Assembly (NCBI GenBank): GCA_025289735.1
Contig: GCA_025289735.1_4764.3
Strand: one strand, 5' to 3'
Length of the DNA stretch: 17,548 nucleotides
Origin: a phage
Shown here piece by piece: positions 1,598-9,639 of the stretch. The number at the start of each line of letters is the position of its first letter. Positions within the stretch are counted from its first letter, which is position 1. The position numbers and the translations under genes are program-made. A model generated the notes under the pieces. The model saw only the letters and a list, made by a program, of their open reading frames with translations, ran no database searches and was not told where the DNA came from.

Positions 1598-4500
1598 ATG
1601 GCAGATTTAAGCAGAATCCAATTTAAACGCACTAGCACTAAAGGTCGTAAACCTGATGCTAGTACGATGAATCCGGGGGAATTGGCAATCAACCTTGCGG
1701 ATCAATATCTTCTTACTAAAAATGATTCCGGTGCTATTATCAATTTAAGTTGTCCTCCGGTGTATGACCGCGATGTTACAATGGCGGGTAAGGTTAAAGG
1801 AAATAATTATATTTTAAGCAAAACCGCCAACTATCTGGAAGATCAGACAGCGCGAGATCTTAACTACTTTGGTGCTTTCCGTACCAATGGTCTTGATGGT
1901 TTTCTCGAACTAACGCTAAACGTTCCTCATTCTTCCGGTATTCAACATGGTCGAGGATTTACTTTCCAGTATGGACACCTTGGATCGCGTGTAGAAACTT
2001 ATGGTTATAATAAAGAAGGACAAAAAGCATTTAGTTATAAAATGTATCATGAAGGGGATAAACCAACTCCAGGAGAATTGAACGTCTATAGCAAACAAGA
2101 AGTAGATCGGATGTTCCAAAAGACACTTGATTTTGGAATTGAGTCCGGTTGGTTTAAAATCGCTACAGTATATCTACCACAACAATATGGGCGTAGTGCT
2201 AAAATTAGATTGGTTGGTGGTAATGGTTATAATGTAGGACAGACCGGGCAAGCTAATATTATTGAATTGGTTCTGCGTAGCGGGAATGGAAATCCGGTTG
2301 GTGTTGTGTTTAACGCTTATATGACCATCTGGTATATAGACCAGAAGTTTTGTGCTATTCCTACTGGTGGTGACTCTTATGATATATACGGTAGCTATTC
2401 CGGTCATACTGGATTTGTGTTGGCTGAATACCAGACTAGCCCTGACGTTAACCTGACTTTATATGATAACCCACAATTTATAGGAAGTCAATTACCGGAA
2501 GCTGAAACAAAGTTCGATGCTTATACAATCACTTCATTTAGTACTTATCGCAACCACGGGACATTAAATTTTGGTGCTAATTCTCAAGGCCAATATGACA
2601 TTGAGCATTTGAACGAACAACCGACAAATGCTAAAAAGATGTTGCGTCGCTTCCGTAGTTGTGCTCCTGCCACTATCTGGCATGAGACAGTTGATGATAA
2701 CCAGTATCGTCTTGCTACTGGATACGAAGATACAAATCAGGAATTATTGCTGACAGCAACATCCGGGTTACATGTCAAGAAATTAACATTGGATGGCGGT
2801 GTCACTGGAAATTCTGGTATTGATATTCGTCGAGGACCAAACGAAGCAAGCCATTTTAATTTTATGGATTATCGCACTGGACAAGATGTTCGTAATGGCT
2901 GGTTTGGCTTCGGTGATGGTCAGACCAAAGATTTTATTTGGTGGAACGATAACGGTCAAAACTCATTAAATCTTTTAGAAAACGGTGAATTACAGATTTC
3001 TGGTGGTAAAGGCCAGAAAATTGTAATGAATAGCGAAGTTGCATTATCTGAAAATGCTCGTTTGGCTGTTAGAGGTGGTAATTATGGCGTGATATTCCGT
3101 AATGATGGAACGAACTTTCATCTGCTTACTACCGATTTAAAAGATTCTTTTGGAAATTGGAATAATCGTAGACCATTTAGTTATGACTTTGCCGAAGGTG
3201 GATTGGATCTAGGTGGCACAACGACCGCACGTTGTTTGCATCTGGGAATTGATGGTAGTACCCGTATCGAGGATAACTTAGTTTTCAGGGCGGGATCTCG
3301 TCAATCAATGGACTACTTAGAATTTGTTCATTGGGGGGCAAGTAATACCGGACGTAATAACGTTTTAAGTCTTCGTGACTCAAAAGGATTTTTAGCAGAA
3401 TTTGAACGTAAAGGTGATAACACCATTCAAAATACATTCTTCGGAAGATTTAAAGTCAATGGTGGTTCTAACGCTATTACCGTTAATGCTCCTACTGATT
3501 CCGAGTCTGTTTATGTGAAAGGTACTTGTAACGATGTAGATAACTGGTATATAGGTAAAGGTGGTGCTGATAATGCATTAGCCTTTTATAGCTATAAGTC
3601 TAATGCGGCTATTTATCTCACAAATAATGGTGAGGTTTTATTAGCCCCACAAAACACCGCAATTGTTAACGTCAATCGCGACCGTATACACATCAACGGT
3701 ACACAGTGGGTGGCAAATCAGCCACATGGCTGGGGTAATCAGTGGCTGTCCGAAGCGCCTATATTCGTTGATTTTGGTACTGGTATTCCAAATGATACCT
3801 ATATGCCAATCATTAAAGCCCGTAGCCAAATTACTGGCGGTTATGCAACTAAGGCCGATTTTGGTATATATCGTCATGGTACTGATACTTGGGGTGATGC
3901 TGTTATTCGTGTCGGTTCTGCCGAAAGTGGTGATAGTAATCATCCAAACGCAATTTATACTTTCCGGGCAAATGGCGATTTTAAAGCTCCGGCTGGCCTC
4001 CGTGCTGGTGTTAACTTGGGTGTTGGTACTGATCCTGTATTGGGTGGACATTCTATTGCTATCGGTGATAATGACACTGGCTTAGTGTGGGGTGGTGATG
4101 GTCGTATTAACATGTTTGCTAACGGACAGCATATTGCATCATGGGGTACGATGTATCAAGAACACTCAGGACTATGGGGAAGTCATGGTGGTTTGTGGAC
4201 AGAAGTCGATAAAGCGATTATTTCTCATGGTCATCTAGTCCAGGCGAATGACAACTATTCTACATATGTTCGTGACATTTATATCCGTTCGGATATTCGC
4301 GTGAAGAAAGACCTAGTTAAATTTGAAAATGCATCTAAGACACTTTCAAAAATTAACGGTTACAAATATCTTCAAAAGCGCGGGACCAATGAAGACGGTA
4401 GCGAACGTTGGGAAGAAAACGCTGGTTTGATTGCTCAGGAAGTTCAAGCTATTTTGCCGGAATTGGTTGAAGGCGATCCAGATAGCGAAAACCTTCTTCG

Positions 4501-4636
4501 TTTGAACTATAACGGTGTTATTGGTTTAAATACTGCGGCAATCAACGAACACACCGAAGAAATTGCACTTCTTAAAGAAGAAAATAAACTTCTTCGTGAT
4601 CGTCTTGCTGCAATTGAAGCAAAATTATTTGGTTAA
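1598..4636 (+). CDS. 37: Long tail fiber distal subunit, gp37-like (1012 aa), with C-terminal intramolecular chaperone domain
   Basis: ATG at 1598 with AAGGA upstream. N-terminus MADLSRIQFKRTSTKGRKPDASTMNPGELAINLADQYLLTKNDSGAIINL parallels recalled T4 gp37 (MATLKQIQFKR...GELAINL...TKDDSGNIIDL). Length matches T4 gp37 (about 1026 aa). Gly/Asn/Thr-rich fibre composition. C-terminal about 114 aa begin with the S-D-x-R-x-K motif. Confidence 0.9.
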   Translation: MADLSRIQFKRTSTKGRKPDASTMNPGELAINLADQYLLTKNDSGAIINLSCPPVYDRDVTMAGKVKGNNYILSKTANYLEDQTARDLNYFGAFRTNGLDGFLELTLNVPHSSGIQHGRGFTFQYGHLGSRVETYGYNKEGQKAFSYKMYHEGDKPTPGELNVYSKQEVDRMFQKTLDFGIESGWFKIATVYLPQQYGRSAKIRLVGGNGYNVGQTGQANIIELVLRSGNGNPVGVVFNAYMTIWYIDQKFCAIPTGGDSYDIYGSYSGHTGFVLAEYQTSPDVNLTLYDNPQFIGSQLPEAETKFDAYTITSFSTYRNHGTLNFGANSQGQYDIEHLNEQPTNAKKMLRRFRSCAPATIWHETVDDNQYRLATGYEDTNQELLLTATSGLHVKKLTLDGGVTGNSGIDIRRGPNEASHFNFMDYRTGQDVRNGWFGFGDGQTKDFIWWNDNGQNSLNLLENGELQISGGKGQKIVMNSEVALSENARLAVRGGNYGVIFRNDGTNFHLLTTDLKDSFGNWNNRRPFSYDFAEGGLDLGGTTTARCLHLGIDGSTRIEDNLVFRAGSRQSMDYLEFVHWGASNTGRNNVLSLRDSKGFLAEFERKGDNTIQNTFFGRFKVNGGSNAITVNAPTDSESVYVKGTCNDVDNWYIGKGGADNALAFYSYKSNAAIYLTNNGEVLLAPQNTAIVNVNRDRIHINGTQWVANQPHGWGNQWLSEAPIFVDFGTGIPNDTYMPIIKARSQITGGYATKADFGIYRHGTDTWGDAVIRVGSAESGDSNHPNAIYTFRANGDFKAPAGLRAGVNLGVGTDPVLGGHSIAIGDNDTGLVWGGDGRINMFANGQHIASWGTMYQEHSGLWGSHGGLWTEVDKAIISHGHLVQANDNYSTYVRDIYIRSDIRVKKDLVKFENASKTLSKINGYKYLQKRGTNEDGSERWEENAGLIAQEVQAILPELVEGDPDSENLLRLNYNGVIGLNTAAINEHTEEIALLKEENKLLRDRLAAIEAKLFG
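4292..4633 (+). other. Predicted C-terminal intramolecular chaperone domain of gp37 (peptidase S74-like), putative autocleavage after Ser898
   Basis: Sequence ...YIRS|DIRVKKDLVKFENASKTLSKINGYKYL...LLKEENKLLRDRLAAIEAKLFG. The S-D-x-R-x-K start and coiled-coil C-terminal tail match the pattern I recall for endosialidase / T5 pb1-type self-cleaving chaperone domains. Confidence 0.6.
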
Positions 4637-4644
4637 TTTAAATG

Positions 4645-4662
4645 GCGGGGAGAAATCCCCGC
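4645..4662 (+). other. Stable stem-loop (GCGGGGA-GAAA-TCCCCGC) between gp37 and the downstream gene, no U-tract
   Basis: 7-bp GC-rich stem with a GNRA-type GAAA tetraloop 9 nt after the gp37 stop. Followed by TAAGGATCTT (the RBS of the next gene) rather than a T-run, so more likely an RNA stability or processing element than a terminator. Confidence 0.5.
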
Positions 4663-4674
4663 TAAGGATCTTAA

Positions 4675-4971
4675 ATGGGCTATTGGGTAAGTAATGAACA
4701 AGACACTAAAATAGATGCTGTAAAATGGCATGTTTTTGATATTCCTAATGGATATGTTCCCGGTCGTGCTGGTGTTGCCGTTTTGCGGCATACCGCTCGT
4801 GATGGTTGGGGCGATATGCATATTTCCGTTGACGGTGTGGTCGCCGCGCGTCGTCGTGGTGGTGGGGATTGGGGATTTACGGTTAATGCGTTTGTTCCTG
4901 CTGGATGTACTGTCACCTTTGGTCATGGGGGTGTCGGTGGTATTGAATACTTTAAATTTATGGAGTTTTAA
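4675..4971 (+). CDS. Small Gly/Trp-rich protein, paralog A of a tandem triplet (98 aa)
   Basis: ATG with AAGGA 6 nt upstream. Shares MGYWV...FDIPNG...GGGD...G-T-T pattern with the two downstream ORFs. Confidence 0.65.
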   Translation: MGYWVSNEQDTKIDAVKWHVFDIPNGYVPGRAGVAVLRHTARDGWGDMHISVDGVVAARRRGGGDWGFTVNAFVPAGCTVTFGHGGVGGIEYFKFMEF

Positions 4972-4973
4972 TT

Positions 4974-5279
4974 ATGGCTGGTTGGGTTGCTGGAAGAATG
5001 GCTAATGCTATTAGCATTTATGCTAATGGCGGCTGGTTTGGTATCCCTAATGGTTGGGTTACTGATTCATGCGGTATTGTGTCTGTTCATGCCGAAGCCG
5101 TTGGCGGTGGAGGTGACTTGGACGCCGAATTATATGTAAACGGTACTCTAGAATCAGGTCATCACGCTGGTAATGCCGGAAGTTGGGGAGCTAGTTCTTT
5201 AGTTGGTGTTGGTGCTACTGTCAGTTTTAGCATTGGTAAAGGAAGTTTAAACCACTTCCAATTTAGGAGAATGCATTAA
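4974..5279 (+). CDS. Small Gly/Trp-rich protein, paralog B of a tandem triplet (101 aa)
   Basis: ATG 2 nt after the stop of paralog A, GGAG 8 nt upstream. Motifs GWFGIPNGW and GGGGD shared with paralogs A and C. Confidence 0.65.
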   Translation: MAGWVAGRMANAISIYANGGWFGIPNGWVTDSCGIVSVHAEAVGGGGDLDAELYVNGTLESGHHAGNAGSWGASSLVGVGATVSFSIGKGSLNHFQFRRMH

Positions 5280-5578
5280 TGGGATATTGGGTGTATGGCG
5301 TTTTAGACAATAAAGCCGGTAAAGCGAATCAGGGATGGTTTGATATTCCTAACGGTTGGACAGCCGACGCTTTCGGTACGGTTTCATTTGGTGCTCATTC
5401 TTCTGGTGGTGGTGGTGACTCAGAATTGCTTTTGCATGGCTTTTGTGTGTCTGGAAGTCATAAGGGTCATGATTGGGGACAGATCCATTCTTGTATTGTG
5501 CCGCAGGGAGTAACGATCACGGTAACTACAAACAGGGGCATTTCCCATCTTCGTTATAGACGCCAGAGCAACCGTTAA
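5279..5578 (+). CDS. Small Gly/Trp-rich protein, paralog C of a tandem triplet (99 aa)
   Basis: Start overlaps the stop of paralog B (TAATG). AGGAGA 8 nt upstream. Motifs MGYWV, GWFDIPNGW, GGGGD. Confidence 0.65.
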   Translation: MGYWVYGVLDNKAGKANQGWFDIPNGWTADAFGTVSFGAHSSGGGGDSELLLHGFCVSGSHKGHDWGQIHSCIVPQGVTITVTTNRGISHLRYRRQSNR

Positions 5579-5629
5579 AAAGAATTAAGGAAACCTCCCA
5601 CGGAAGGGAACTACTAAGGAGAAACGGCT

Positions 5630-5869
5630 ATGGTCTATAATATCGTCATTGGTGCTTTGTCTAATTTCGGAATGAAACTATTGTCAAAGTTAATTAGTGA
5701 AAAGATGCTCACTAAAATCTTCTTCTATTGCGCTCGTCGTCTTGCGGCTTATACCAATACGCCAATTGATGATCGTTTTGTGGAAGAACTTTATAAGGAG
5801 TTTAATAAAGATCAGTTAGAAGATAGCAACGAGCAAAATAAAAATAGTGATAGTCAAGTACCTAAATAA
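5630..5869 (+). CDS. Hypothetical protein (79 aa) between the fibre module and the holin
   Basis: ATG with AAGGAG 8 nt upstream. Hydrophobic/amphipathic N-terminus and acidic, low-complexity C-terminus. No family recognised. Confidence 0.5.
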   Translation: MVYNIVIGALSNFGMKLLSKLISEKMLTKIFFYCARRLAAYTNTPIDDRFVEELYKEFNKDQLEDSNEQNKNSDSQVPK

Positions 5870-5902
5870 GAGTACACTGTCATAGTTATCTTAGGGCATT
5901 AT

Positions 5903-6559
5903 ATGCAAGTTTCTGAAAAAGGGAAAGACTTTGCTATCTCAAATGTCCTGCGCGCTATTTTCACAACTAAAAGCACGGAGTTGCTCGTACTTCGTGTTTT
6001 TGCTGCCGTCGTGTTGTCCATATTAGCATTTGTCGTTTATAGTAAAAACGAGTTATTTGCCTTGTATAAAGAGACTCGTTATGAGACTTATGCTCACGTT
6101 CTCCAGGTAGAGAAAGACCGCAATTTTGATAATGCAGCACAGGAGCAGTTACAGATAGTTCATGTGTCGGCTGATGCCGATTTTTCTGCTGTTTTTAGTT
6201 TTCGTCCGAAAAACCTAAACTATTTTGTTGATTTGGTGGCATATGAAGGAAAGCTACCGCATACAATCGATGAAAAAAATTTAGGTGGATTCCCTATCAA
6301 TAAAACGAGTGAAGAATATCGTAGGCATCTTTTAGGTAAATCATATTTTACCGATAAAGATTTCCAGTATATTCCATCAAGAGAAAAGAAATTAGAGAGT
6401 ATCGATATAGGGTTTATGTATTCTTGCCCTATATTCAATCTCGATAATGTCTATTCTGGTAGTATCGCCATTGCGTGGAAGAATAAACCGGATATTGACA
6501 TTGAGAATTTAGATACTCTTTGCAATCAATCTGCCAGAATCCTCGGAAGGATTAGATAA
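5903..6559 (+). CDS. t: Holin, T4 t-type (218 aa)
   Basis: Same length as T4 holin T. Single TMD (LVLRVFAAVVLSILAFVVY) after a short N-terminal region, then a large C-terminal domain. Several blocks match my recollection of T4 T: EQLQIVH, ADFSAVxSFRPKNLNYFVD, AYEGKLP, MYSCPxFNLDNxYxG, ARILGR. Confidence 0.9.
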   Translation: MQVSEKGKDFAISNVLRAIFTTKSTELLVLRVFAAVVLSILAFVVYSKNELFALYKETRYETYAHVLQVEKDRNFDNAAQEQLQIVHVSADADFSAVFSFRPKNLNYFVDLVAYEGKLPHTIDEKNLGGFPINKTSEEYRRHLLGKSYFTDKDFQYIPSREKKLESIDIGFMYSCPIFNLDNVYSGSIAIAWKNKPDIDIENLDTLCNQSARILGRIR

Positions 6560-6564
6560 CTTAA

Positions 6565-6597
6565 AGGGGAAGCCTTTCGGCCTCCCCTTCTTTTTAT
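6565..6597 (+). terminator. Rho-independent terminator after holin t
   Basis: 10-bp stem AGGGGAAGCC / GGCCTCCCCT (one mismatch), loop TTTC, followed by TCTTTTTA. Confidence 0.7.
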
Positions 6598-6842
6598 TGG
6601 AGCATAGAAGCCCCTGAATCACATTTTGACGCTGTATGATGAAAACAGGTAGCGTACCAGTCATCGGCTTGTTTGTCTTCGTCAGAAAACGCGTAATTGC
6701 GTTGTATGCCGTTTTCTACTTTGACCAGTGCAATAGCTGTTTCTGGAAGATCAATCAATCGGACAAAATCACCGTCTTCCCACTCCACACGGGCAATATC
6801 ATAGCCCATCTCAAAGTATACAATCGCTTGTTCTAATTTCAT
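6594..6842 (-). CDS. Hypothetical early protein (82 aa)
   Basis: ATG overlaps the upstream stop (ATGA). Last gene of the minus-strand array, ending at the t terminator. Confidence 0.5.
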   Translation of the reverse strand: MKLEQAIVYFEMGYDIARVEWEDGDFVRLIDLPETAIALVKVENGIQRNYAFSDEDKQADDWYATCFHHTASKCDSGASMLQ

Positions 6843-8838: not shown

Positions 8839-9639
8839 TTAACCCTTCTTATATTCGCAAACATATTGAGTACCATAATCATAGCTAATGCGACCTTTCT
8901 CGATGACTTCAAAGCGGATTTCATCGTTTTCCCCTACCCACATTTTGTACTCGTTGAAGTATCCTGCTACATCCGGTTTGCTCATACCAACAACCATATT
9001 TTTATATTGTTTGCTGCGTGTCAGATTTGATTTAAACACTTCGCGCTCATCAACATATACGAAAGAAGACAATTCACCTTCGGTCATGGTCATTTTCAGC
9101 TTGCCGCCCTTGTTGCCATAAGTAGAGTTGCCATACAATGGATCTTTGCGGCTGTCTGTTTCAATACCATCAATGATTTTCCATGTAAATTTTGCAATGC
9201 ACTGGTAAGTGATAGATCCAGAGATTTTCTCTTCTTTCTTCTGTTCTTCCACCACTTTTTCTTCCTGTTTCGGTTGTTCTTCTTCAACCTTCACAGAAGT
9301 CTCTGAATCGCTTTCTGACGCGGTTTCTTCTTTAGGTAATACATTCATCAAGTTTTGGATTTGAGCGTGATATACAGCCTCCAGTGGCTGAATTTTCCCG
9401 ATATTGATCATTGTATCACGAACAGTTTTATTCCAGTTGCGTTGCTCTTGTTTCAGAGACGGATCAATCTTAACAGCCTTAACATATACTTCATGAAGTT
9501 TAGAATCAAGTGCGGAGATAGACTCATTAGCACAAATAAACTTCTCTGATTTGGTAGTAGCTTTAGCGCAATCAAAGGACGCAGCATTAGCACCGAAAGC
9601 AGTAGCAGAAAGAACGATAGCAGCGATAATGTTTTTCAT
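8839..9639 (-). CDS. Secreted protein with N-terminal LprI/DUF1311-like domain, charged linker and C-terminal beta-rich domain (266 aa)
   Basis: ATG with GAGGAA 8 nt upstream, directly downstream of promoter cassette P3. Signal peptide MKNIIAAIVLSATAFGANA|AS. Then FDCAKATTKSEKFICANESISALDSKLHEVY...QEQRNWNKTVRD, fitting the DUF1311 pattern as I recall it (C..A.T..E..IC...LD..L..Y...Q..W...RD). E/K-rich linker. C-terminal domain with two Cys and an SGSITY motif. Confidence 0.7.
   Translation of the reverse strand: MKNIIAAIVLSATAFGANAASFDCAKATTKSEKFICANESISALDSKLHEVYVKAVKIDPSLKQEQRNWNKTVRDTMINIGKIQPLEAVYHAQIQNLMNVLPKEETASESDSETSVKVEEEQPKQEEKVVEEQKKEEKISGSITYQCIAKFTWKIIDGIETDSRKDPLYGNSTYGNKGGKLKMTMTEGELSSFVYVDEREVFKSNLTRSKQYKNMVVGMSKPDVAGYFNEYKMWVGENDEIRFEVIEKGRISYDYGTQYVCEYKKG

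What the first reader, a model, noticed from the sequence alone, without database searches (positions are those of the whole stretch)
5630..5869. Uncharacterised 79-aa ORF between the fibre genes and the holin
It has a good RBS and sits between the paralog triplet and t. The amphipathic N-terminus and acidic tail are compatible with a holin-associated or fibre-associated accessory protein. T4 has no gene at this position as far as I recall.
Basis: inference. Interest (0 to 1): 0.35.

Follow-up and report, generated by a model that had tools for sequence, protein, structure and literature searches.

The report
Small lysis-accessory gene beside holin
This is a real, conserved 79-codon phage gene of the same family as the PM2 lysis factor P18 (gp l) and always lies just upstream of the holin gene; the link was published for phage RB49 in 2007, so it is a known kind of gene that databases still call 'hypothetical'.

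Summary
The ORF at 5630-5869 (+) is real. It has an AAGGAG ribosome-binding site 8 nt upstream. It is 90-99% identical in about 59 RB49-like (Krischvirus) coliphages and is under purifying selection (dN/dS about 0.2). It is not uncharacterised in kind: the exact protein carries Pfam PF26925 'Phage_PM2_Gpl', and it matches PHROG 402. A family profile aligns to PM2 gp l itself (hhalign 95% probability, E 2.5e-8). PM2 gp l (P18) is a 51-aa lysis factor without a transmembrane segment, required for outer-membrane disruption. Krupovic & Bamford (2007) already listed RB49, Felix O1, PaP3 and cyanophages as carrying P18 homologues. RB49 annotates the gene twice, as a 79-aa hypothetical protein and as a truncated 'Dc5'.

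In divergent T4-like phages the upstream fibre cassette varies, but this gene always directly precedes holin t. Related genes abut holins or endolysins in other phage groups. The model is three helices plus a disordered tail, with no predicted membrane span and net charge 0.

Most likely it is an accessory lysis protein made with the holin. An open point is that Krischviruses also have spanins and RI, so its exact step (outer membrane or holin level) is untested. Novelty is low.

The parts
5616..5621 (+). Shine-Dalgarno sequence AAGGAG, 8 nt upstream of the ATG
   Evidence: Read directly from the sequence. The leader has no stable structure. The internal Met15 used by RB49's 'dc5' annotation has no comparable site.
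5630..5869 (+). CDS of 79 aa plus stop; PM2 P18/gp l-family protein (PF26925 Phage_PM2_Gpl; PHROG 402); orthologue of RB49p252/'Dc5'
   Evidence: purifying selection.
5633..5692 (+). Helix 1 (residues 2-21): hydrophobic helix with conserved F13, K16, L17 and L18; not a predicted transmembrane segment
   Evidence: AF2 model. KD19 maximum 1.31 and Hessa dG +6.8 kcal/mol. Column conservation. The hydrophobic pattern is shared across the family, which supports the Met1 start.
5699..5752 (+). Helix 2 (residues 24-41): E24 and the invariant core KIFFYCARRLA
5753..5773 (+). Family signature loop T42-x-T44-P-I-D47-D48, which caps helix 3
   Evidence: D47 is invariant, T42 and D48 are at 97%, and T44 is at 79% in 29 diverse members. 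It aligns to S-E-N-T-L-D-N of PM2 gp l.
5762..5830 (+). Helix 3 (residues 45-67), acidic (net -5)
5831..5866 (+). Polar, low-confidence C-terminal tail (residues 68-79); variable in length and absent in most family members
   Evidence: pLDDT below 50; alignments.
5903..6559 (+). Holin t (218 aa, one TMD), the invariant downstream partner gene, 33 nt after the ORF
   Evidence: PF11031 E 8e-61 and phrog_860. Synteny. TMD.
6566..6598 (+). Hairpin plus U-run ending the ORF-t transcription unit; it lies between convergent genes
   Evidence: dG -16.8 kcal/mol, z -2.15. A terminator is annotated at the same place in phage G2248.

Best explanation
The ORF is a genuine late gene of an RB49-like (Krischvirus) T4-type coliphage. 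It encodes a 79-aa, three-helix protein with no membrane span, belonging to the PM2 P18/gp l family (Pfam PF26925). It is co-transcribed with, and translated just before, the holin t. Inferred mechanism: the protein accumulates in the cytoplasm as a small helical bundle. When the T holin opens the inner membrane, the protein reaches the envelope together with the lysozyme. It then helps the last stage of lysis by destabilising the outer membrane, as P18 does in PM2, acting alongside the phage's own spanins. Shown here: the gene is real, it is conserved, it belongs to the family and it is linked to the holin. Shown only in the literature, and only for PM2: the outer-membrane role. Inferred: that the Krischvirus protein does the same, and how it reaches the envelope.
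For: Family membership. The exact protein carries an unmarked PF26925:Phage_PM2_Gpl hit, as do all 15 close homologues. It matches PHROG 402 at E 7e-20. A profile of 29 diverse members aligns to PM2 gp l with hhalign probability 95.2%, E 2.5e-8, over 43 columns. Literature. P18 is required for outer-membrane disruption in PM2, and P18 homologues were reported in RB49, Felix O1, PaP3, P-SSM2, P-SSM4 and S-PM2. Linkage to lysis genes in separate lineages. (1) In Krischvirus and divergent T4-likes the gene always directly precedes t, whether the upstream gene is gp37, the triplet or gp38. (2) In PM2 the holin gene k overlaps l. (3) In Felix O1-like phages it abuts or overlaps a one-TMD 'putative holin'. 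(4) In Vibrio phages it follows an M15 endolysin. (5) In a metagenomic podophage it starts after a 1-nt gap behind a GH108 endolysin. (6) In T7-like cyanophages it occupies the slot between the fibre or membrane-protein genes and the small terminase. Several carriers are on the published 'spanin-less' list: PM2, PaP3, P-SSM2, P-SSM4, S-PM2 and P-SSP7. Gene reality. AAGGAG RBS, dN/dS about 0.2, and one transcription unit ending at the terminator after t.
Against: RB49-type phages have T4-type i- and o-spanins, so an outer-membrane disruptor is not obviously needed. Nothing has been tested in any Krischvirus. Identity to PM2 gp l is about 23% and pairwise BLAST is not significant, so the function could have diverged. 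The protein has no signal peptide and no predicted TMD, and its net charge is 0, unlike the cationic disruptin, so how it would act on the outer membrane is unknown. Some family members lie inside virion-structure modules with no recognisable lysis gene nearby. No late-promoter consensus TATAAATA lies in the window.
Confidence: 0.55

Rival explanations
1. [quoted passage not shown] On this reading it is a cytoplasmic or membrane-peripheral co-factor that helps, times or restrains hole formation by single-TMD holins (T, Felix O1 ORF79, PM2 gp k). It would resemble the 65-aa Lcc6 of Shewanella prophage LambdaSo or the T4 cytoplasmic antiholin RIII.
For: The tightest and most repeated linkage is to one-TMD holin-type genes: PM2 k/l overlap, gene-t in T4-likes, 0-1 nt junctions in Felix O1-like phages, and a one-TMD 100-aa neighbour in L013. 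Krischvirus and Felix O1 already have spanins. LambdaSo likewise has spanins and still needs Lcc6, which has the same size and layout (hydrophobic helix at residues 5-22 plus about 43 aa) and acts at the holin step.
Against: The only genetics for the family (PM2) places P18 at the outer-membrane step, after the inner membrane is permeabilised. RB49 has its own rI antiholin. Homology to Lcc6 could not be tested because the sequence was not obtainable and the genome scan found no Shewanella member. In Vibrio phages and in L009 the neighbour is an endolysin, not a holin.
Confidence: 0.25
2. It is a tail-fibre or virion accessory protein (assembly factor or minor structural or ejected protein) that merely sits at the end of the fibre operon.
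For: It follows the fibre genes in Krischvirus, Felix O1-like phages and T7-like cyanophages. In Cronobacter phage A24 and Aeromonas phage LAh_8 it lies between a needle-knob or Ig-like gene and tail genes.
Against: The upstream fibre cassette is swapped between relatives while the gene stays with t. PM2 has no tail fibres, yet its member is a lysis factor. Other members follow endolysins in non-structural regions. There is no match to any fibre-chaperone family.
Confidence: 0.07
3. It is a spurious or decaying ORF with no function.
For: It is short, databases label it 'hypothetical', and no promoter was found in the window.
Against: It has a strong RBS. It is conserved from 60 to 99% identity with an invariant 27-residue core. 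dN/dS is about 0.2. It has significant family matches across unrelated phage groups.
Confidence: 0.02

Closest known systems
Pseudoalteromonas phage PM2 protein P18 (gp l, gene XVIII); Pfam PF26925 Phage_PM2_Gpl
   Same: Same sequence family. Both are small, helical and lack a predicted TMD, with near-neutral charge (0 versus -1). Both are encoded next to a single-TMD holin at the end of the late operon.
   Different: It is 79 aa against 51 aa, with about 8 extra N-terminal residues and a 20-residue polar tail. The gene order is reversed: the ORF lies upstream of the holin here and downstream in PM2. PM2 has no spanins and Krischvirus does. Only PM2's protein has a demonstrated phenotype.
RB49 RB49p252 / 'Dc5' (RB49p253) and the 'hypothetical proteins' at the same place in about 59 Krischvirus genomes
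   Same: Orthologue, 92-99% identical, in the same position between the fibre genes and t. It was named as a P18 homologue in PMC1950889.
   Different: RB49 starts with GTG. This probably explains why the 'dc5' CDS was drawn from the internal Met15. In this window and in three relatives a paralog triplet precedes the gene instead of gp37 directly.
Felix O1 ORF78 and its Ounavirinae homologues
   Same: Same family at 44-47% identity. Same layout: fibre gene, then this gene, then a one-TMD membrane protein, then a convergent early region. These phages also encode spanins elsewhere in the genome.
   Different: The downstream partner is a 121-aa protein (phrog_4038, unknown function) that is unrelated to the T holin.
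Disruptin gp28 of coliphage phiKT
   Same: Both are small, helical, non-spanin proteins. PM2 P18 resembles gp28 in being implicated in the outer-membrane step of lysis.
   Different: gp28 is a strongly cationic antimicrobial-peptide-like protein in a spanin-less phage and is reported to have no homologues beyond a sister phage. This protein has net charge 0 and sits in a phage with spanins.
Spanins (lambda Rz/Rz1; T4 pseT.3/pseT.2)
   Same: They act at the same stage of lysis as the published role of P18.
   Different: Spanins are an inner-membrane-anchored protein plus an outer-membrane lipoprotein that fuse the two membranes. This protein has no TMD or lipobox. RB49's spanins lie about 25 kb away.
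LambdaSo Lcc6 (SO_4795)
   Same: It is 65 aa, with an N-terminal hydrophobic helix plus about 43 aa. It is needed for lysis in a phage that also has a holin, an endolysin and spanins.
   Different: It is predicted to span the membrane and acts at the holin step. It is encoded near int/xis, not in the lysis cluster. Sequence relationship was not tested.

Membership tests
PM2 P18 / gp l family (Pfam PF26925 Phage_PM2_Gpl; PHROG 402) | Significant match to the family's profile HMM | tested here: met
   The exact protein has an unmarked PF26925 hit on record, as do all close homologues. PHROG 402 matches at E 7.3e-20 over residues 9-61. The local Pfam copy lacks this newer model.
PM2 P18 / gp l family (Pfam PF26925 Phage_PM2_Gpl; PHROG 402) | Homology to the founding member, PM2 gp l | tested here: met
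   hhalign of the 29-member profile against PM2 gp l gives probability 95.2%, E 2.5e-8, over 43 columns. Pairwise BLASTP alone is not significant, E 3.1.
PM2 P18 / gp l family (Pfam PF26925 Phage_PM2_Gpl; PHROG 402) | Small helical protein without a transmembrane domain, with a conserved E...T-x-T-x-x-D-D signature | tested here: met
   Three helices. KD19 1.31 and dG +6.8 kcal/mol. E24, T42, T44, D47 and D48 are conserved.
PM2 P18 / gp l family (Pfam PF26925 Phage_PM2_Gpl; PHROG 402) | Encoded next to the holin or lysis genes | tested here: met
   The ORF ends 33 nt upstream of t in every T4-like relative examined. In PM2, l overlaps k.
PM2 P18 / gp l family (Pfam PF26925 Phage_PM2_Gpl; PHROG 402) | Required for outer-membrane disruption at the end of infection | not testable with these tools
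   Known only from PM2 genetics as cited. The original paper (PubMed 17555443) is not held.
Disruptin (phiKT gp28-like cationic peptide) | Net charge of at least +4 and a spanin-less genome | tested here: not met
   Net charge is 0 and the family median is 0. RB49-type phages have spanins.
Holin | At least one transmembrane domain | tested here: not met
   The best 19-residue window has KD 1.31 (threshold 1.6) and a predicted insertion dG of +6.8 kcal/mol. Some distant family members reach KD 2.0-2.1, so the family is borderline.
T4 antiholin RI | Homology to RI, or filling the RI role in a phage that lacks it | tested here: not met
   RB49 has an annotated rI next to rI.-1 and tk, as in T4. 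The protein matches no other Pfam, NCBIfam or PADLOC family.
LambdaSo Lcc6-like lysis factor | Sequence similarity to SO_4795 | not tested
The motif scan of bacterial genomes returned no Shewanella locus.

The most novel reading that the evidence does not exclude
In phages that already have spanins (Krischvirus, Felix O1-like), the P18-family protein may not be an outer-membrane disruptor. It may instead be a dedicated partner of single-TMD holins that sets or enables hole formation. That would make it a widespread but unrecognised fourth component of lysis cassettes, possibly the same kind of factor as LambdaSo Lcc6.
Probability: 0.2. Interest if true: 0.55.

Novelty: already known. Interest (0 to 1): 0.25.

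Why it matters
The practical gain is annotation. Hundreds of 'hypothetical protein' entries in Krischvirus, Felix O1-like, Vibrio, Aeromonas and cyanophage genomes can be labelled 'PM2 P18/gp l-family lysis accessory protein', and RB49's truncated 'Dc5' CDS can be corrected. One such gene in P-SSP7 is not annotated at all. The biological point worth testing is why phages with a full T4-type lysis set (holin T, RI, lysozyme, spanins) keep a P18-like gene glued to the holin. E. coli phages of this type offer a tractable system for studying a lysis factor so far examined only in a marine corticovirus. Therapeutic and typing phages (Krischvirus, Felix O1) carry it, so it may affect lysis efficiency in media rich in divalent cations.

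Tried and rejected
- **Local family libraries.** Local Pfam-A, NCBIfam and PADLOC gave nothing meaningful for the ORF. The Pfam model is newer than the local copy. Its name surfaced only through the precomputed labels.
- **Solved structures.** The profile search of PDB sequences hit only designed helical-repeat proteins. Foldseek against the PDB found nothing significant. Foldseek against BFVD found only uncharacterised members of the same family.
- **Structure prediction.** The first AF2 run, with 15 close sequences, was poor (pLDDT 58.7). A more diverse alignment raised it to 69.7. Both jobs are now used, so no complex with T could be modelled.
- **Bacterial genomes.** A degenerate-motif scan of bacterial genomes gave 40 loci. 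Only 3 are clear family members (L047, L049, L053), plus one weak match (L064, E 2.6e-4), all on short MAG contigs (L053 2.6 kb, L064 3.6 kb). The Haemophilus hits are spurious.
- **Promoter.** No TATAAATA late promoter lies in the window. The one-mismatch hits are fewer than in shuffled sequence.
- **RNA families.** Rfam found nothing in the window.
- **Rejected: replacement for RI.** RB49 has its own rI.
- **Rejected: Felix O1 ORF79 as the i-spanin.** The published Felix O1 spanins lie at 5.3-5.8 kb of that genome.
- **Rejected: P0018.** This 196-aa repeat protein from the representative search is a motif coincidence.
- **Literature gap.** The original PM2 lysis paper could not be read.

Full report
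**What is there**

The window is a late/early junction of an RB49-like T4-type coliphage (genus Krischvirus). Positions 4600-6600 match Escherichia phage vB_EcoM_G2248 at 96.4% over the full length, and 59 phage records match in all.

The ORF at 5630-5869 (+) translates to MVYNIVIGALSNFGMKLLSKLISEKMLTKIFFYCARRLAAYTNTPIDDRFVEELYKEFNKDQLEDSNEQNKNSDSQVPK. AAGGAG lies at 5616-5621, 8 nt before the ATG, and the leader is unstructured.

Upstream lie a 496-aa fibre protein, a 1012-aa gp37-type distal fibre and three paralogous 98-101 aa ORFs. Downstream, after 33 nt, is the T-type holin (PF11031, E 8e-61). A hairpin plus U-run follows at 6566-6598 (-16.8 kcal/mol). Beyond it the genes converge from the minus strand.

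**It is a real gene**

The protein is 90-99% identical in 59 Krischvirus records and 60-75% identical in more divergent T4-like metagenomic contigs. Across 15 of these sequences a 27-residue core, KIFFYCARRLAxYTxTPIDDxFVEELY, is almost invariant, while the ends vary.

Pairwise dN/dS is 0.18-0.25 where dS is 0.8-1.6. The neighbouring holin is slower still, at 0.03-0.09.

RB49 annotates the locus twice: as a 79-aa hypothetical protein (RB49p252) and as a 65-aa 'Dc5' starting at the internal Met15. RB49's first codon is GTG, which probably explains the truncated model. The hydrophobic pattern of residues 2-15 is shared by distant relatives, so the long form is the right one.

**What family it belongs to**

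The local Pfam copy, NCBIfam and PADLOC find nothing. PHROG 402 (unknown function) matches at E 7e-20. All database homologues carry a precomputed hit to a newer Pfam model, PF26925, whose name is Phage_PM2_Gpl. The exact window protein is on record with that hit.

I checked this independently. An exhaustive HMM search gave 19 representative clusters of 60-87 aa proteins with the same layout. A 29-member alignment aligns to gp l of Pseudoalteromonas phage PM2 (MFSTLAKYLAVKLLTETFIKRVCLATAKHLANKSENTLDNELIDALEDALN). The hhalign result is probability 95.2%, E 2.5e-8, over 43 columns. Pairwise BLAST alone is not significant.

**What is known about that family**

In PM2, P17 (gp k) is a one-TMD holin. 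P18 (gp l) is required for disruption of the outer membrane (PMC6356626; PMC9502842). Krupovic & Bamford 2007 (PMC1950889) state that P18 homologues are encoded by PaP3, Felix O1, RB49, P-SSM4, S-PM2 and P-SSM2. So the homology of this very gene, through its RB49 orthologue, is already published. The primary PM2 lysis paper is not held.

**Context across phages**

In T4-like relatives the gene upstream differs, but the P18-like gene always directly precedes t:
- the paralog triplet in L018 and L026;
- gp37 with its S74 chaperone domain in L019, L020 and RB49;
- a gp38 adhesin in L021.

T4 itself has nothing between 38 and t.

Other lineages show the following:
- In Felix O1-like phages (Felix O1, Michonne, Rouille) the homologue follows the fibre gene. 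It abuts or overlaps by 1 nt a 111-124 aa protein with one TMD and a periplasmic coiled coil, annotated 'putative holin'.
- In PM2, gene l overlaps the holin gene k.
- In Vibrio phages it follows an M15 peptidase endolysin. One of these phages has an HNH endonuclease inserted in between.
- In a metagenomic podophage it starts after a 1-nt gap behind a GH108 endolysin.
- In T7-like cyanophages it sits between the fibre or membrane-protein genes and the small terminase, the slot of the T7 holin.
- In P-SSM2 it overlaps the end of a class-3 lipase gene.
- In Cronobacter phage A24 and Aeromonas phage LAh_8 it lies inside the structural module.

About half of the roughly twelve lineages sampled therefore place it beside a recognisable lysis gene. 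The family seems rare in bacterial genomes: a motif scan found only three clear members (L047, L049, L053) and one weak match (L064), all on short MAG contigs of 1.0-3.6 kb.

**Physical character**

AlphaFold2 with a 25-sequence alignment gives three helices (residues 2-21, 24-41, 45-67) and a disordered tail, at mean pLDDT 69.7. The first run had given 58.7.

Helix 1 is hydrophobic but carries a conserved Lys16. Its best 19-residue window scores KD 1.31, with a predicted insertion energy of +6.8 kcal/mol, so it is not a predicted membrane span. Other family members range up to KD 2.1.

Hydrophobic positions follow a 3-4 spacing on all three helices, as in a small helical bundle. Consistent with that, the only PDB sequence matches are designed helical repeats. 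Net charge is 0, and the family median is also 0. Fold searches add nothing beyond uncharacterised family members.

**Interpretation**

The best-supported reading is an accessory lysis protein made together with the holin. By analogy with P18, it would act late, on the outer membrane, after the holin opens the inner membrane.

The caveat is substantive. Kongari et al. (PMC6139136) list RB49, JSE and Phi1 among phages with T4-type spanins, at 128.6-129.4 kb in RB49. They list Felix O1 with overlapped spanins at 5.3-5.8 kb. In contrast, PM2, PaP3, P-SSM2, P-SSM4, S-PM2 and P-SSP7 are on their spanin-less list. RB49 also has its own rI. In this phage the protein is therefore either redundant or conditional help for the spanins, or it does something else.

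The main rival is a role at the holin itself. Two things suggest this. One is the recurrent pairing with one-TMD holin-type genes. The other is LambdaSo Lcc6, a 65-aa protein of the same layout that is needed at the holin step in a phage that also has spanins. I could not test whether Lcc6 is a family member.

A fibre or virion role and a non-functional ORF are both unlikely, for the reasons given under the rival explanations.

**Verdict**

The kind of gene is already known and its RB49 orthologue has been published as a P18 homologue, although databases still call it hypothetical and nobody has tested it in a T4-like phage. Interest is low to moderate.

Noticed in passing
window 4675-4971, 4974-5279, 5279-5578 (+): Three tandem paralogous Gly-rich ORFs of 98-101 aa (28-30% identity, shared W-V...IPNGW...GGGGD motifs) have no Pfam, NCBIfam or PADLOC match. 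The only PHROG match is a weak one for the first ORF (phrog_18834, E 7e-4). They occur in only a few Krischviruses (G2248, UPWr_E1, G37-3, L018, L026). They occupy the place where a relative (L021) has a gp38 adhesin and where RB49 has nothing, so they may be an alternative fibre-tip or adhesin module.
   Followed up: partly
window 6594-6842 (-): An 82-aa protein matches the Thoeris anti-defence Tad2-like domain (PF11195, 27.9 bits against a cutoff of 25, E 3.4e-6). It is conserved at this position, convergent with t, in all the relatives examined.
   Followed up: no
L001 6065-6304 (RB49 154699-154938): RB49 carries two overlapping CDS for this gene: a 79-aa hypothetical protein and a 65-aa 'Dc5'. 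The first codon is GTG. The shorter model looks like an N-terminal truncation.
   Followed up: yes
L023 3525-3680 (P-SSP7 39189-39344): An unannotated 51-aa ORF in cyanophage P-SSP7 (MLAILKPLVLTGLKSPKFKVFVIQLLEKLVEQTDNELDDKALAIVKKGLGV) looks like a P18-family member. It lies between PSSP7_045 and PSSP7_046, just before the small terminase. P-SSP7 is on the published spanin-less list.
   Followed up: partly
L022 2860-3686 (P-SSM2): In cyanomyovirus P-SSM2 the P18-like gene overlaps by 1 nt the end of a class-3 lipase/esterase gene (PF01764, E 9e-21). This may be a lipid-directed lysis pair, reminiscent of mycobacteriophage LysB.
   Followed up: no
L008 3401-3976 (Vibrio phage 1.177.O): An HNH endonuclease gene is inserted between the M15 endolysin and the P18-like gene. 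These two genes are adjacent in the sister phage 1.079.O.
   Followed up: partly
L017 3230-3337 (Felix O1, +1 frame inside ORF79): A 35-codon embedded ORF begins with a lipobox-like sequence (LVLLGC). Published work places the Felix O1 spanins elsewhere, so this may be chance.
   Followed up: no
window 8839-9639 (-): A 266-aa protein has a signal-peptide-like N-terminus (MKNIIAAIVLSATAFGANA). A homologue carries a faint LprI hit (L019). It is probably a secreted or periplasmic early protein.
   Followed up: no
window 1598-4636 (+): The gp37-type distal fibre ends in an intramolecular-chaperone domain. Homologues carry PF13884 Peptidase_S74. This fits with the lack of a T4-type gp38 assembly factor at this locus.
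   Followed up: no
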